A program made the translations under genes and the position numbers. This document shows positions 12,714 through 16,075 of a stretch of DNA of 32,000 nt, one piece after another; the stretch's first letter is position 1; each line of letters opens with the position of its first letter. The notes under the pieces are model-generated. The model had not been told where the DNA came from. It saw only the letters and a program-made list of their open reading frames with translations, and ran no database searches. Origin of the DNA: Verrucomicrobiota bacterium (GTDB lineage Bacteria > Verrucomicrobiota > Verrucomicrobiia > Opitutales > LL51); the NCBI GenBank assembly GCA_021294815.2, contig CP095464.1, forward strand, positions 480,001 through 512,000, read 5' to 3'.

Positions 12714-13079
12714 ATGCGTATCAATCTTGGTGGCGGGCAGTTTATCGGTTTGAATGATGCCGCAAAAGTTCTCGCTGCGAAGAACAGTGAAACCGGTAAA
12801 GTGACATTTTTTGAGACGCTCATGTATAAAATCGAATTCAAGCAAGCGATTAGGGCAGGCGATGAATCGAAAATCATGGAATTTGTTAAGGACATTTGGA
12901 CGGTCAGAGATCTTAATGGGCTCGTTAAGGGAAGAACTCAAGGCGAGTTTAAGTTTAGAAAGAGGAAATTCGCAAAAGTGCGTGATGCTCTGGAACAACT
13001 CAAGCGTGACGGAGGGGTGCTGTTCAAAGATCGGGAGATGAGGATGAAGGCGCAGCAGATCAGCGGCAAAAAGTTTTAA
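12714..13079 (+). CDS. hypothetical protein X1 (121 aa), a short paralog of the N-terminal domain of the 13365-14633 product
   Basis: MRINLGGGQFIGLNDAAKV...ESKIMEFVKDIWTVRDLNGL..GRTQGEFKF aligns with MQRINLGNGQSISVSHAAKV...ESKIMDSVKVLWTVRDLGGL..GKTKGEFTY. No signal peptide. Confidence 0.65.
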   Translation: MRINLGGGQFIGLNDAAKVLAAKNSETGKVTFFETLMYKIEFKQAIRAGDESKIMEFVKDIWTVRDLNGLVKGRTQGEFKFRKRKFAKVRDALEQLKRDGGVLFKDREMRMKAQQISGKKF

Positions 13080-13181
13080 AGCTTTCGAAATTCGTCAAGC
13101 GTTGTAGTGCCAGCGTTAACATGTTGAGCTGCGGCGTTTTTTAGTGGAATGAGGCCTTCGGTGCGAGCAATTGCTCGGAGC
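13017..13181. repeat. 165-bp direct repeat, copy 1 (identical by eye to 14862-15026)
   Basis: It covers the last 59 nt of X1 before its stop-codon overlap with gspE, plus a copy of the last 106 nt of gspE on the opposite strand. Confidence 0.9.
13076..13181 (-). pseudogene. orphan copy of the 3'-terminal 106 nt of gspE (last 34 codons plus stop)
   Basis: Identical to 14921-15026. Homology stops abruptly at 13181. Confidence 0.85.
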
Positions 13182-13364
13182 GGGTGAGCATTTTAAAACG
13201 ATCGTATTTTTTCGTCTGTAGATTGCAATATTTGTGTCAAAAGTTCTTTAGCAATAGCACGAGATTTATTTATGTTTCGGGAAAATTTCTCTAAAAACTA
13301 CTTTTTTGTGGAGTGCGTAGGAAATTTTATTTTAAAATATAATTTTTTTTTTACTATATGACTC

Positions 13365-14633
13365 ATGCAACGCATTAATCTCGGCAATGGACAATCCATC
13401 AGCGTGTCCCATGCAGCAAAAGTGATCGTTGATGAAATGGCGCTTCGGACCCATCAAAAGCCAAAATCCTTGTTCTTGGCGCGCATGAATATTAGGAAAG
13501 AGATTAGACAAGCTCTCCGAACAAACAATGAATCGAAAATTATGGATTCTGTTAAAGTTCTTTGGACAGTTAGAGATCTGGGTGGACTCGGCGTAGGTAA
13601 GACAAAGGGGGAATTCACGTACAATAAAAAGCAATTTGCGGGTATAAGCGGGAAATTGAGCGAGTTTTACAATAAAGGAGTCATTTGGAAGAATGTCGAG
13701 GAGCGTAATGCATTGCAAGAAAAAGACGCTGTGATGAGTGAGGCTCAGGAAGTTTGGAAGGGGTCTTTACCCGAACAGCCTAAAATGCCGACGCCATTGG
13801 CATCGACTCCGAAGAAAACTATGCCGAAAACTACACCTAAGGCTGTTCCCGAGCCATCCATAGCACAGCAGCCCACCGTTAAAAGCCCGAAAGAAGAAGA
13901 TGTAACATCAGAAGCTCCGAAACCTGAAGGAGCGGGGGGGACGCAAAGACAGCGCAAGGTGGCATTCGGAACACTATCATTGGGGCCACTATCGGAACCA
14001 GTATCAAACTTGCATGGCATGGGTAATACGGCACAAGTAACAGATACACCACCTCCACCACCTCCACCACCTCCACCACCTCCACCACCTCCACCACCTC
14101 CACCACCACCACCTCCTCCTCCGCCTCCTGCGGCTTCGTCGAGTCAGAGTCCTATAGATTTAATCAAGCAAATTGGCGAAGGTGGCGCTCAGGATTTCTT
14201 TGCTACCATAAAGAAAAATAGACGGCAAGAGGCACAAGAAATGCCGCCTCCTCCTTTAAATGAACAGAAGTCAACTCGAGAGATGACTGCTGCTGAACTT
14301 CTGGCAAAGCAGGCAGATTCATTTATAAGAGACGACGATGAATTGACGTACGGTGAAGAAGCTGCTATTTTGGGGAGTGCACAAAAGGAATTGAAGCCAG
14401 AGATGTATGCACAGCTGACAAAAACATTGGATGACCTAAGTGAATATGTGCCAAAGAATATGGACGACTTAGAAGTAGATGTGCGAAAAGAATGGGAAAT
14501 AATGGAAAATTCCTTGAAAGATTTGCAAACAAAGCTGCAAACAAAGGAAACGCTAACAGATGACGAACAGAAATTAAAAGGCAAGATTGATGATCTATTG
14601 GAGAAGATAAATGATTCTGAAGATAGCTGGTAG
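13365..14633 (+). CDS. hypothetical protein X2 (422 aa): X1-like N-terminal domain, Pro/Lys-rich linker, 27-residue polyproline tract, WH2-like helix and an acidic coiled-coil-like C-terminus ending DSEDSW
   Basis: ORF with an ATG 7 nt after a TACTAT box. The domain layout was read from the translation. No signal peptide. Confidence 0.7.
   Translation: MQRINLGNGQSISVSHAAKVIVDEMALRTHQKPKSLFLARMNIRKEIRQALRTNNESKIMDSVKVLWTVRDLGGLGVGKTKGEFTYNKKQFAGISGKLSEFYNKGVIWKNVEERNALQEKDAVMSEAQEVWKGSLPEQPKMPTPLASTPKKTMPKTTPKAVPEPSIAQQPTVKSPKEEDVTSEAPKPEGAGGTQRQRKVAFGTLSLGPLSEPVSNLHGMGNTAQVTDTPPPPPPPPPPPPPPPPPPPPPPPPPPPAASSSQSPIDLIKQIGEGGAQDFFATIKKNRRQEAQEMPPPPLNEQKSTREMTAAELLAKQADSFIRDDDELTYGEEAAILGSAQKELKPEMYAQLTKTLDDLSEYVPKNMDDLEVDVRKEWEIMENSLKDLQTKLQTKETLTDDEQKLKGKIDDLLEKINDSEDSW
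14049..14129 (+). repeat. in-frame microsatellite (CCACCTCCA)x6 plus degenerate CCN codons, encoding 27 consecutive prolines
   Basis: Counted by hand from the sequence (81 nt). Confidence 0.9.
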
Positions 14634-14726
14634 CCATTGGATAAGATAGAAAAGACTAAAGGTAATGACTGATATGTCTTATAACGGAGTTATCGATTGA
14701 ACAGTAGACAAGCTATCTAATCCCCC

Positions 14727-14860
14727 GTAATTCGTCAAACGTCGTGGTGCCAGCGTTAACAAGCTGAGCTGCGGCGTTTTTTAGTGGGTTTAGATCTTCG
14801 GTGCGAACAATTGCCCGGAGCTCTCCAGGTAGATATAACTAACATGTCGCCTAGCAGAGC
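14727..14860 (-). pseudogene. diverged orphan copy of the gspE 3' region (colinear with 14932-15065)
   Basis: The hand alignment has no indels and about 26 mismatches over 134 nt. It ends 1 nt before repeat copy 2 begins. Confidence 0.75.
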
Positions 14861-14861
14861 A

Positions 14862-15026
14862 GTGCTGTTCAAAGATCGGGAGATGAGGATGAAGGCGCAG
14901 CAGATCAGCGGCAAAAAGTTTTAAAGCTTTCGAAATTCGTCAAGCGTTGTAGTGCCAGCGTTAACATGTTGAGCTGCGGCGTTTTTTAGTGGAATGAGGC
15001 CTTCGGTGCGAGCAATTGCTCGGAGC
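14862..15026. repeat. 165-bp direct repeat, copy 2 (orphan X1 3' fragment plus the genuine gspE 3' end)
   Basis: Identical to 13017-13181. The upstream X1 coding sequence is absent here (TAG at 14851-14853). Confidence 0.9.
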
Positions 15027-16075
15027 TCTTCAAGAGGACGTAACTGACGCGTCGCCTCACGAAGCGGGTAGGTCATCGAAAGCCACTCGTAGACCCCAAA
15101 GCGGCCGCAATAACCACTGCCATCGCATTGGTCACACCCATGTCCGCGGTAAGTGTGCTCAATTTGGTACGCTTCCATAACCGTGCGCATTTCGGCCGTC
15201 GGTGTGGTTTCTTCCTGGCAGTGCGGGCAAATTTTGCGTAACAGCCGTTGCGCGAGAACCCCACGGAGCGTGTCCGCAATCAGGTACGGCTCTACAGACA
15301 TGTCGATGAGCCGCGTAATCGCACCAGGAGCGTCGTTGGTGTGAAGAGAACTCAGGACGAGATGGCCTGTGAGCGCCGCCTGGACCGCAATCTTGGCCGT
15401 CACCGTATCGCGGAGCTCGCCAATCAAAATCTTATCCGGATCGTGGCGTAGAAATGCCCGGAGCACGTGTTCAAATGTCAGCCCGATGTCGTCGTTGATG
15501 TTGACTTGTACCAGCCCTTCTGTCTCGTACTCCACCGGATCTTCGACCGTGACAATCTTGGTATCTTCCTGGTTGAGTTCCCGTAACGCACCGTAGAGCG
15601 TCGTCGTCTTGCCGCTTCCCGTCGGACCCGTCGTTAAAATCATCCCCGACCCCGAAGCTAGTGCTTGGCGAAAGGATGCTAAAATGGCCGGCGTGATGCC
15701 CATCTGGGCTAGACTCCGCTGCCCAATGCCTGAGTCGAGAACACGCAGAACCACGCTTTCGCCGTACTGTGTCGGAAGCACCGAGATGCGGAAATCGATT
15801 GTTCGGCCATGGGTAACGCATTCAAGGTGCCCGTCTTGCGGTAGGCGTTTTTCGGCGAGGTCGAGATTGGCAAGGGTCTTGAGCCGCGCGATAATGGCCT
15901 CGCTCAAATGAACGTTAGGCGTGAGCTGCTCACTCAAAACCCCATCGACGCGAAAACGTATCGAAAAATGATCGAGAAAGGTCTCAAAATGTACATCGGA
16001 GGCGCCTTGCCGTACCGCGTGCTCGAGAACATGGTACACGAACTGGACAATCGGCAAATCCTCGGCGTTGAGCAT
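14921..16075 (-). CDS. gspE: type II secretion / type IV pilus assembly ATPase of the GspE/PilB family, short form (384 aa) lacking the N1 domain
   Basis: Walker A GPTGSGKTT, Asp box, Walker B ILIGELRD, His box LVLSSLHTNDA and the tetracysteine motif CPHC...CDQCDGSGYCGR. Confidence 0.88.
   Translation of the reverse strand: MLNAEDLPIVQFVYHVLEHAVRQGASDVHFETFLDHFSIRFRVDGVLSEQLTPNVHLSEAIIARLKTLANLDLAEKRLPQDGHLECVTHGRTIDFRISVLPTQYGESVVLRVLDSGIGQRSLAQMGITPAILASFRQALASGSGMILTTGPTGSGKTTTLYGALRELNQEDTKIVTVEDPVEYETEGLVQVNINDDIGLTFEHVLRAFLRHDPDKILIGELRDTVTAKIAVQAALTGHLVLSSLHTNDAPGAITRLIDMSVEPYLIADTLRGVLAQRLLRKICPHCQEETTPTAEMRTVMEAYQIEHTYRGHGCDQCDGSGYCGRFGVYEWLSMTYPLREATRQLRPLEELRAIARTEGLIPLKNAAAQHVNAGTTTLDEFRKL

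What the first reader, a model, noticed from the sequence alone, without database searches (positions are those of the whole stretch)
13017..15065. Three nested copies of the gspE 3' end: a perfect 165-bp direct repeat brackets X2, and an older copy about 80% identical sits inside
Positions 13017-13181 and 14862-15026 are identical by eye. Each copy contains the last 59 nt of X1 and, on the other strand, the last 106 nt of gspE. The X1 TAA and gspE TAA stop codons overlap as TTAA.

The 1680 bp between the repeats holds X2. At its right edge is a third, diverged and colinear copy of the gspE 3' region, 14727-14860 matching 14932-15065. I count about 26 mismatches in 134 nt with no indels. This third copy extends further into gspE than the perfect repeat does.

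The locus therefore reads: X1, gspE', X2, gspE'', X1' stub, gspE.

This records at least two rounds of insertion or duplication at the same point, one old and one very recent or homogenised by gene conversion. The 3' end of the secretion ATPase gene seems to act as a recurrent recombination site that accumulates X-family genes. This is analogous to islands that target the 3' end of a conserved gene and carry a replacement copy of it. No recombinase is visible in the window. The perfect repeat also predicts easy loss of X2 by homologous recombination.
Basis: seen in the sequence. Interest (0 to 1): 0.7.

Follow-up and report, generated by a model that had tools for sequence, protein, structure and literature searches.

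The report
Orphan gene flanked by duplicated gene-ends
A 1.7-kb piece of DNA carrying one orphan gene sits between two tail-to-tail genes of a small-genome Verrucomicrobiota bacterium, with 165 bases of their ends duplicated so that both stay intact; it is a real and tidy scar of recombination between strains, not a new kind of mobile element.

Summary
13017-13181 equals 14862-15026 (165/165, sharp edges). 14727-14860 matches 14932-15065 at 108/134 with no indels.

The closest relative available (L001, GspE 96% identical) has X1 abutting gspE with overlapping stops and no X2. This is the empty site, and also the product predicted for recombination between the repeats.

The third copy, gspE'', is a neutrally decayed pseudogene fragment with in-frame stops and changes spread evenly over codon positions. 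The X1' stub next to it is 59/59 identical to X1. Both junctions of the 1680-bp segment are therefore probably young, and gspE'' probably travelled with X2 as cargo rather than marking an earlier insertion at this point.

The cassette and both repeats lie inside a tract of about 2.3-2.4 kb (about 12986-15383). There, synonymous divergence from L001 is about 0.75-0.80, against 0.15-0.18 in the flanks (0 of 500 permutations). X2 presence or absence was therefore exchanged by homologous recombination with arms in X1 and gspE.

No integrase, transposase, terminal inverted repeats or tRNA are present. RecA is in the window.

Best reading: a recent duplicative insertion or exchange by general and illegitimate recombination, resembling a minimal mobile element. 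Interest is modest.

The parts
12714..13079 (+). X1, a 121-aa orphan gene whose stop overlaps the stop of a gspE end
   Evidence: ORF. It is 100% identical to NCBI UPA28122.1. The L001 ortholog is 96% identical with dN/dS 0.10, so X1 is a real gene under purifying selection.
13017..13181 (.). Perfect repeat, copy A. It comprises X1 codons 102-121 plus the stop, and the 106-nt fragment gspE' (13076-13181, minus strand).
   Evidence: 165/165 identical to 14862-15026. gspE' translates 100% as GspE residues 351-384 but has no upstream ORF.
13182..14861 (+). Segment M (1680 bp) between the repeats. It contains an AT-rich upstream region (13182-13364), X2 (13365-14633), a 93-nt spacer, and gspE''.
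   Evidence: It is unique in the window apart from gspE''. It is absent from L001, where X1 abuts gspE. It has no terminal inverted repeats and no match in the plasmid collection.
13365..14633 (+). X2, 422 aa. It has an X-family N-domain (41% identical to X1), a run of about 30 prolines encoded by a 9-bp tandem repeat, a WH2-like stretch, and a coiled-coil/acidic tail ending in ..SEDSW.
   Evidence: No Pfam, NCBIfam or PHROG family matched. No homologues were found in the large protein searches.
14716..14860 (-). gspE'', a decayed pseudogene fragment of the gspE 3' end, running from the stop codon to about +145
   Evidence: 108/134 identity without indels. nhmmer places it at 14720-14862. It has in-frame stops, and its 26 private changes are spread 9/10/7 over codon positions.
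14862..15026 (.). Perfect repeat, copy B. It comprises the X1' stub (14862-14924, with no start codon) and the functional 3' end of gspE.
14921..16075 (-). gspE, a 384-aa secretion/pilus ATPase of the GspE/PilB family
   Evidence: Pfam T2SSE 3e-123. NCBIfam GspE 5e-148. NCBI UPA28124.1.
12986..15383 (.). Recombinant tract. This stretch is three to five times more diverged from L001 than the flanking parts of X1 and gspE, and it encloses both repeats and segment M.
   Evidence: dS is 0.75-0.80 inside and 0.15-0.18 outside. A maximum chi-square test on third codon positions gives 55/185 mismatches inside against 29/320 outside, and 0 of 500 permutations reach that value.
6302..12583 (+). Five lineage-specific genes with signal peptides (S582, S414, S404, S263, S315). 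Together with X1 and X2 they fill the gap between the M42 peptidase gene (5057-6220) and gspE.
   Evidence: M42 and gspE are adjacent and convergent in L002 and L003. The five genes share a promoter and signal-peptide module.
29701..30762 (-). recA, the general recombinase able to act on 165-bp repeats
   Evidence: Pfam RecA 5e-129.

Best explanation
**What it is.** The ancestral arrangement at this spot is X1 and gspE tail to tail with overlapping stop codons, so there is no intergenic space. A 1680-bp segment M now lies in that junction. M comprises the X2 promoter region, X2, a 93-nt spacer and an already decayed remnant of a gspE 3' end. M is bracketed by a 165-bp duplication of the junction (59 nt of X1 plus 106 nt of gspE).

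**How it formed (inferred).**
- The duplication is not an attachment site. It is the by-product that allows an insertion between two overlapping gene ends to leave both genes intact.
- It was made recently by illegitimate joining at two points, 13181|13182 and 14861|14862.
- The joining could have been an unequal exchange between two chromosome copies bridged by M, or a template switch out to M and back 165 nt upstream.
- gspE'' records an earlier residence of X2 next to a gspE gene. Its homology stops at the gspE stop codon, as expected for a native X2-gspE adjacency. It then came along as cargo.

**How it spread.**
- The structure, or its empty counterpart, then moved between lineages by ordinary RecA-type homologous recombination.
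- One crossover lay in X1 (about 12986) and the other in gspE (about 15250-15383).
- This is how minimal mobile elements are exchanged.

**Consequences.** The repeats now make X2 deletable or amplifiable by RecA.

**Shown.**
- The anatomy.
- The age contrast between the copies.
- The empty site in a relative.
- The mosaic tract.
- The absence of mobility genes.

**Inferred.**
- The joining mechanism.
- The direction of transfer.
- The cargo status of gspE''.
For: 1. Exact anatomy with sharp edges.
2. L001 (GspE 96%, X1 96%) has X1 abutting gspE with the same 2-nt stop overlap and no X2.
3. gspE'' evolved neutrally. Its 26 private changes fall 9/10/7 on codon positions 1/2/3 and it has in-frame stops. 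By contrast, changes on the gspE and L001 branches are 17 of 19 at third positions.
4. The X1' stub (59 nt) and gspE' (106 nt) have zero differences from their functional twins. With the 19% decay of the adjoining gspE'', 59/59 has P of about 3e-6, so both junctions are young.
5. gspE'' was not homogenised although it lies only 205 nt from copy B. This is an internal control against efficient concerted evolution at this locus.
6. Mosaic divergence from L001: dS is 0.15 and 0.18 in the distal parts of gspE and X1, and 0.75 and 0.80 in their proximal parts. The maximum chi-square tract is 12986-15383, and 0 of 500 permutations reach it.
7. There is no integrase, transposase or tRNA in or near M. 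There are no terminal inverted repeats. X1 and X2 have no phage, plasmid or PHROG relatives.
8. recA is present.
9. M42 and gspE are adjacent in L002 and L003, so the whole interval gains genes in this lineage.
10. Exchange of variable gene content by recombination in conserved flanking genes is documented as the 'minimal mobile element' (PMC3787668). Illegitimate joining anchored by one-sided homology is documented as HFIR (PMC6382021).
Against: - Only one close relative exists (a 3.8-kb contig ending 11 nt upstream of X1), so the polarity of the exchange cannot be decided. The window lineage may have imported the cassette, or L001 may have imported an empty junction. GC3 and outgroup residues were uninformative.
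- No clear microhomology is visible at 14861|14862 (at most 1-3 nt). One parent of the 13181|13182 junction is unknown, so the illegitimate-joining step is not demonstrated.
- Heteroduplex extension stops at heterology borders, so a conversion tract could in principle homogenise a repeat right up to its edges.
- The three-way test that places gspE'' with the window's gspE rather than with L001 is weak (11-14 versus 5 sites).
- The assembly itself could not be checked against reads.
Confidence: 0.55

Rival explanations
1. Both junctions are old and arose in two separate events at this site. The 165-bp block that happens to be shared by the left (X1-gspE') and right (X1'-gspE) loci has been kept identical, or was recently made identical, by RecA-mediated gene conversion.
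For: - recA is present.
- 165 bp exceeds the length usually needed for RecA pairing (established knowledge).
- Each half of the block is under selection in one of the two copies, so conversion from the functional copy would be tolerated.
- Conversion tracts can run up to a heterology border.
Against: - gspE'' is homologous to both copies and only 205 nt from copy B, yet it was allowed to decay to 80%. Conversion is therefore not efficient here.
- If the block had ever diverged comparably, pairing at about 80% identity is strongly disfavoured (PMC6382021).
- Recombination frequent enough to prevent any divergence should also delete X2.
- There is no partially homogenised fringe. Identity falls from 100% to random within one base at both edges.
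Confidence: 0.17
2. M is a small non-autonomous integrative element, like a mobilisable islet or cassette. A site-specific recombinase encoded elsewhere in the genome inserts it at an attachment site in the X1/gspE junction, and the 165-bp repeats are attL and attR.
For: - Direct repeats bracket the insert and restore the 3' end of the target gene.
- An empty site exists in a relative.
- gspE'' could be the trace of a previous target.
Against: - No integrase or transposase is found in M or in any ORF of at least 100 aa in the 32 kb.
- There are no inverted repeats or notable hairpins at the ends.
- 165 bp of perfect identity with no shorter conserved core is untypical of att sites.
- The genome is only about 0.88 Mb.
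- The mosaic tract extends well beyond the repeats on both sides. This fits homologous exchange, not site-specific exchange.
Confidence: 0.05
3. The structure, or part of it, is an artefact of metagenome assembly. The contig would switch between two co-occurring strains with different architectures at this locus, producing both the repeat and the high-divergence tract.
For: - The source is a MAG.
- The tract 12986-15383 has a different ancestry from its flanks. A strain switch would also produce that pattern.
- Exact proteins of this window were not found on any other contig, so there is no independent assembly.
Against: - Both junction sequences must exist in reads for an assembler to output them.
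- All three genes (X1, X2, gspE) are intact and in frame across the junctions.
- A strain that diverged (dS about 0.75) shares few long exact k-mers at which a switch could occur twice within 2.4 kb.
- The contig is 878 kb, which suggests a well-resolved assembly.
- Similar mosaicism is seen at R270, as expected for real recombination.
Confidence: 0.1

Closest known systems
Minimal mobile elements of Neisseria (Saunders & Snyder 2002; Snyder et al. 2007; described in PMC3787668)
   Same: - Gene content varies between close relatives between the same conserved flanking genes.
- There are no mobility genes.
- Transfer is by homologous recombination in the flanks. Here the flanks are X1 and gspE, and the recombinant tract is demonstrated.
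   Different: - Here the insert is additionally bracketed by a 165-bp duplication of the flank junction and carries an old fragment of one flank gene.
- Natural transformation has not been shown for this organism.
- Only one comparison genome exists.
Campbell-type insertion-duplication (single-crossover integration of a circle carrying a chromosomal fragment) and its reverse, repeat-mediated excision or amplification
   Same: - The product geometry is identical: insert flanked by perfect direct repeats, each a hybrid of the left and right context.
- It is reversible by RecA.
- The predicted excision product equals the L001 architecture.
   Different: - A circle containing the 165 bp plus M presupposes the structure it is meant to explain, so this accounts for spread or loss but not for origin.
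- No circle has been observed.
Homology-facilitated illegitimate recombination (de Vries & Wackernagel 2002; Prudhomme et al. 2002; summarised in PMC6382021)
   Same: Foreign DNA is joined at one end without homology while neighbouring homology anchors the event. It needs no dedicated mobility enzymes.
   Different: - The hallmark 3-10-bp microhomology could not be demonstrated at either junction.
- The specific HFIR scenario in which gspE'' is the recipient's displaced gene end is rejected by its neutral decay pattern.
Integrase-borne genomic islands that insert into the 3' end of a tRNA or protein gene and carry a replacement end
   Same: Direct repeats contain the target gene's 3' end, and the target gene remains intact after insertion.
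   Different: - There is no integrase.
- The repeat is far longer than a typical att core and spans two genes.
- The insert is a single 1.7-kb gene.
- The recombinant tract extends beyond the repeats.
Tandem-duplication join points and amplifiable units in bacterial chromosomes (established knowledge from Salmonella, E. coli and Streptomyces genetics)
   Same: The structure can be read as a 165-bp tandem duplication with 1680 bp of filler at the join. Direct repeats then permit RecA-dependent copy-number change.
   Different: Filler of this size, carrying a complete gene plus a pseudogene fragment, is unusual. No amplification is observed.

Membership tests
Integrase-mediated island at a gene 3' end | Site-specific recombinase (tyrosine or serine integrase) encoded in or beside the element | tested here: not met
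   Pfam scans of 26 ORFs, covering the main non-overlapping ORFs of at least 100 aa in the 32 kb plus one 68-aa ORF, found no integrase, transposase or resolvase. The only ORF of at least 100 aa in the insert with any support as a gene is X2; two antisense ORFs inside it were not scanned.
Integrase-mediated island at a gene 3' end | Direct repeats at both ends that reproduce the 3' end of the target gene | tested here: met
   There are 165-bp perfect repeats containing the last 106 nt of gspE. They also contain 59 nt of X1.
Integrase-mediated island at a gene 3' end | Excised circular form and precise empty site produced by the recombinase | not testable with these tools
   An empty site exists in L001, but its origin cannot be told from sequence. 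It may be ancestral, or produced by RecA or by an integrase.
Transposon / insertion sequence | Transposase, terminal inverted repeats, and a short target-site duplication (2-14 bp) | tested here: not met
   There is no transposase and no terminal inverted repeats at 13182 or 14861. The duplication is 165 bp.
Minimal mobile element (MME) | Different gene content between the same conserved flanking genes in close relatives | tested here: met
   The window has X2 between X1 and gspE and L001 has nothing there. On a larger scale, 8.7 kb lie between M42 and gspE in the window and none in L002 or L003.
Minimal mobile element (MME) | Evidence of homologous recombination in the flanking genes | tested here: met
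   dS jumps from 0.15-0.18 to 0.75-0.80 at about 12986 in X1 and about 15250-15383 in gspE. Zero of 500 permutations reach the observed value.
Minimal mobile element (MME) | No associated mobility genes | tested here: met
Minimal mobile element (MME) | A DNA-uptake route (natural transformation) in the organism | not tested
   Only a GspE/PilB-family ATPase is seen. Competence genes outside the window could not be examined.
Campbell-type insertion-duplication / RecA-reversible repeat structure | Identical direct repeats, each a hybrid of the two flanking contexts, with a general recombinase available | tested here: met
   165/165 identity. Copy A continues X1 and copy B continues gspE. recA is at 29701-30762.
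Campbell-type insertion-duplication / RecA-reversible repeat structure | Circular donor carrying the homologous segment | not testable with these tools
   No reads or population data are available.
Homology-facilitated illegitimate recombination | Illegitimate joint at 3-10 bp of microhomology next to a homologous anchor | tested here: inconclusive
   At 14861|14862 the candidate parents share at most GAG..G. The parent sequence left of 13182 is unknown. Homologous anchors exist in X1 and gspE.
GspE (type II secretion ATPase) as the identity of the flanking gene | Full-length match to the GspE equivalog model above its cut-off | tested here: not met
   TIGR02533 scores 494 bits against a cut-off of 630. 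The match covers model positions 104-482, so the N-terminal domain is absent. PilB scores almost as well at 462 bits. Family-level assignment to GspE/PilB is secure (Pfam T2SSE 3e-123).

The most novel reading that the evidence does not exclude
The gspE-end fragments are not mere scars but portable homology arms. In these reduced, mobile-element-poor genomes, effector-type cassettes such as X2 would travel with a piece of the conserved secretion-ATPase gene end. That piece would let them recombine into the gspE-proximal slot of other strains. The result would be a recombinase-free, homology-addressed cassette exchange system that builds the effector island next to the secretion ATPase.
Probability: 0.1. 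Interest if true: 0.55.

Novelty: new member of a known kind. Interest (0 to 1): 0.35.

Why it matters
- It gives a clean, datable example of how a genome of about 0.9 Mb with no visible mobile elements still gains, swaps and can lose accessory genes that look like effectors. It does so by general recombination anchored in conserved neighbours.
- It shows why insertions between overlapping convergent genes must carry duplicated gene ends.
- It makes a testable prediction: X2 copy number should vary within populations through deletion and amplification by RecA acting on the 165-bp repeats.
- It warns annotators that gene-end fragments beside a cargo gene need not mark the site of an earlier insertion.
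- The wider locus may matter more than the repeat itself. It holds proteins with proline-rich, WH2-like and acidic-Trp features next to a secretion ATPase, in a lineage whose lifestyle is debated.

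Tried and rejected
1. **Scenario: gspE'' is the recipient's own gene end displaced by a recent import of X1'-gspE.** Rejected. gspE'' changes are spread evenly over codon positions with in-frame stops, and gspE'' is not L001-like.
2. **Scenario: simple tandem duplication of a 205-bp unit, or of an X-gspE unit.** Rejected.
   - The sequence left of gspE'' (14634-14726) has no similarity to the X1 3' end.
   - X1 and X2 are far too diverged (41% aa) to share the age of gspE''.
3. **Search for older gspE or M42 end remnants elsewhere in the 8.7-kb island.** None found.
4. **Terminal inverted repeats and hairpins at the junctions.** There is only a 14-nt palindrome inside gspE, 4 nt from the right edge of the repeat. 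Folding was not significant, with z of -2.0, 0.0, +1.1 and +1.8 for the four junction sequences.
5. **Finding more relatives.**
   - The genome-contig scan gave one close contig and two distant ones.
   - The metagenome scan gave none closer than 54%.
   - Exact-protein look-ups found no other contigs.
6. **Function of X.**
   - Pfam, NCBIfam and PHROGs gave nothing.
   - A profile search of 1.84 billion representatives returned only X1 itself.
   - Word-based searches of X2 gave nothing.
   - The AlphaFold model of X1 had pLDDT 80 in one of five models, and no fold match reached E below 1.
   - PDB sequence searches of the WH2-like and acidic tails were not significant.
7. **Polarity of the recombinant tract.** GC3 and outgroup residues were uninformative.
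8. **Dating gspE'' relative to the split between the window lineage and L001.** Only suggestive (11-14 versus 5 sites). It is about as old as that split, or up to twice as old.

Full report
**1. Observation**

- Positions 13017-13181 and 14862-15026 are 165/165 identical (blastn E 9e-84).
- Identity ends abruptly. The 60 nt to the left match 20/60 and the 60 nt to the right match 17/60.
- Each copy holds the last 20 codons and the stop of X1 (12714-13079, +) and the last 106 nt of gspE (14921-16075, -). The two stop codons overlap as TTAA.
- The 1680 bp between the copies (13182-14861) carry one intact 422-codon ORF, X2 (13365-14633).
- A third co-linear copy of the gspE end, 14727-14860 versus 14932-15065, has 108/134 identity and no indels.
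- nhmmer extends this third copy to 14720-14862, from about the gspE stop codon to +147.
- No further remnants of gspE or of the other border gene exist in the window.

**2. Identity of the genes and of the genome**

gspE:
- It is a GspE/PilB-family ATPase (Pfam T2SSE 3e-123).
- It lacks the N-terminal roughly 100 residues of the GspE model and scores below the equivalog cut-off.

X1 and X2:
- They share an N-domain of about 120 aa (41% identity).
- This domain has no relatives in Pfam, NCBIfam or PHROGs, nor in the phage or plasmid collections.
- A profile search of 1.84 billion representative proteins also found none.
- An AlphaFold model (pLDDT 80 in one of five models) has no fold match.

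Source:
- X1 and gspE are identical to UPA28122.1 and UPA28124.1 of an NCBI Verrucomicrobiota MAG (locus tag LW808). The contig is 878,461 bp.

**3. Related loci**

Only one close relative was found: L001, a 3767-bp contig of an Opitutales MAG.
- Its GspE and X1 are both 96% identical to the window's.
- In L001, X1 abuts gspE directly with the same 2-nt stop overlap, and there is no X2.
- This is the empty site. It is also the product expected if the two 165-bp repeats recombined.
- X1 is a real gene, with dN/dS 0.10 between the two genomes.

Two Puniceicoccales MAGs (L002 and L003, GspE 65%) have gspE convergent with an M42 peptidase gene.
- In the window, M42 is at 5057-6220.
- The 8.7 kb between M42 and gspE are therefore lineage-specific. 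They hold five genes with signal peptides plus X1 and X2.

A scan of the metagenome collection found nothing closer.

**4. Ages of the copies**

gspE'' is a pseudogene fragment that has evolved neutrally.
- In a three-way comparison with gspE and L001, its 26 private changes fall 9/10/7 on codon positions 1/2/3 and create in-frame stops.
- Changes private to gspE (5) or to L001 (14) are almost all at third positions.
- Its Jukes-Cantor distance from gspE is 0.22.

The perfect pair is much younger.
- It has 0 differences in 165 nt, which puts the 95% upper bound on divergence at about 1.8%.
- In each copy one half is non-functional: gspE' in copy A and the X1' stub in copy B.

The decisive point is that the X1' stub lies directly against gspE''.
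- If the 14861|14862 junction were as old as gspE'', 59/59 identity would have P of about 0.81^59, or about 3e-6.
- Both junctions of the 1680-bp segment are therefore young.
- gspE'' is most simply cargo that arrived with X2, not the trace of an earlier insertion at this spot.

Two further observations fit this reading.
- gspE'' homology ends at the gspE stop codon. This is what a former native arrangement of X2, 93 nt, then gspE would leave.
- gspE'' has not been homogenised although it is only 205 nt from copy B. This argues against efficient concerted evolution here, and so against the idea that the perfect pair is an old repeat kept identical by conversion.

**5. A recombinant tract**

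I aligned the window with 13182-15026 removed against L001. Divergence is strongly non-uniform.

| Region | dS against L001 |
|---|---|
| gspE, first 225 codons | 0.15 |
| X1, first 90 codons | 0.18 |
| gspE, last 110 codons | 0.75 |
| X1, last 32 codons | 0.80 |

- A maximum chi-square scan on third codon positions places the tract at 12986-15383.
- It has 55/185 mismatches inside and 29/320 outside, and none of 500 permutations reaches the observed value.
- The cassette and both repeats lie in the middle of this tract.
- The presence/absence difference between the two lineages was therefore transferred by homologous recombination, with one crossover in X1 and one in gspE.
- The direction is undecided. 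Either the window lineage imported the cassette with its repeats, or the L001 lineage imported an empty junction.
- A second mosaic patch at R270 (17389-18088) shows that such exchange is common in this neighbourhood.

**6. Mechanism**

Shown:
- There is no integrase, transposase or tRNA in or near the insert.
- There are no terminal inverted repeats or significant hairpins at the junctions.
- recA is at 29701-30762.

Inferred:
- X1 and gspE overlap at their stops, so any insertion between them destroys a gene unless the ends are duplicated. The 165-bp duplication is that by-product.
- It was generated by two illegitimate joins. This could be an unequal exchange between chromosome copies bridged by M, or a template switch out and back 165 nt upstream.
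- Spread or loss then proceeds by general recombination.
- The repeats predict RecA-dependent deletion and amplification of X2.

**7. Comparison with known systems**

- Minimal mobile elements are the best functional match. Gene content varies between conserved flanking genes, there are no mobility genes, and recombination occurs in the flanks (PMC3787668).
- Campbell-type insertion-duplication matches the geometry.
- HFIR (PMC6382021) is a candidate for the joining step, but microhomology could not be shown.
- Integrase islands at gene 3' ends and transposons fail on their defining features (see the membership table).

**8. Verdict**

It is right about two ages, an active recombination site and a deletable X2.
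- It is wrong about two insertion rounds at the same point and about an island-like mechanism.
- This is a new instance of a known kind of event and is of modest interest.
- The main uncertainties are the unverified assembly and the single comparison genome.

Noticed in passing
window 6250-6420, 8100-8270, 9400-9600, 10720-10900, 11620-11810: The five genes with signal peptides between M42 and X1 share a conserved 5' module. It reads TTTTAAGATTTATTGACA, 17 nt, TTTA(G/A)AAT, about 10 nt, then ATGAA.. and a signal peptide ending ..FGE. Their mature parts are unrelated. The listed ORFs start 80-100 nt too early because the promoter region happens to be open. The array looks built by reuse of a promoter and signal-peptide module.
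   Followed up: partly
window 14029-14633 (X2), 12500-12583 (S315 tail); L002 7130-9778 and 14401-16521; L003 8144-9715: Several proteins combine features in the order of WASP-type WH2, central and acidic (VCA) actin-nucleation-promoting modules.
- X2 has about 30 prolines, then IDLIKQIGEGG..ATIKKN, and an acidic tail ending ..SEDSW.
- S315 ends ..STSSW.
- In the distant relatives, proline-rich proteins beside gspE carry LDLIKTAQSNLKKV or HLDLIKEKAFQLKKI, followed by acidic stretches containing Trp (..SESTAW, EEDSFW).
- An ankyrin protein ends ..SSTEW.

This would imply interaction with a eukaryotic cell. It is a motif-level reading only. Pfam and PDB searches were not significant.
   Followed up: partly
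window 14047-14128: The X2 polyproline run is encoded by a 9-bp tandem repeat (CACCACCTC, 9.1 copies, 93% matches). It is an in-frame array that could change length by slippage.
   Followed up: no
window 17389-18088 (R270) versus L001 96-887: The secreted paralog R270 is only 52% identical to its L001 counterpart, while its neighbours R294 and GspE are 89% and 96% identical. Short near-identical stretches lie inside and beside it. This is a second mosaic, allele-replacement patch in the same neighbourhood.
   Followed up: partly
window 23996-24079 vs 25997-26081; 23677-23724 vs 25789-25836; 23345-23468 vs 23525-23648: There are other partial duplications around the three large orphan ORFs (1058, 399 and 1050 aa). 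One is a 79%-identical copy of the first roughly 85 nt of the 1050-aa gene lying in an intergenic region. Another is a 97.6% internal repeat in the 1058-aa gene.
   Followed up: no
window 13164-13177 and 15009-15022: A perfect 14-nt palindrome, CGAGCAATTGCTCG (coding RAIAR in GspE), ends 4 nt before the right edge of the 165-bp repeat. It is imperfect in gspE'' and in L001. It could be a stalling or breakage point, but the predicted hairpin is weak.
   Followed up: partly
window 14921-16281: GspE is 384 aa and starts at position 104 of the GspE model, so it lacks the N-terminal domain. Its start codon overlaps the stop codon of a 68-aa orphan ORF (16075-16281) that is conserved in L001. No other type II secretion or pilus genes are in the window.
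   Followed up: no
whole window / source genome: The source is an 878-kb contig of a Verrucomicrobiota MAG, and the relative L001 is an Opitutales MAG. A 2025 paper describes a gut Opitutales family (UBA9783) with genomes below 1 Mb and proposes that its members are free-living scavengers (PMC12306168). Whether this genome belongs to that family was not established.
   Followed up: partly
window 10001-14900: G+C is 40-47% across the lineage-specific genes, against 55-57% in gspE and 48-56% in the housekeeping flanks.
   Followed up: no
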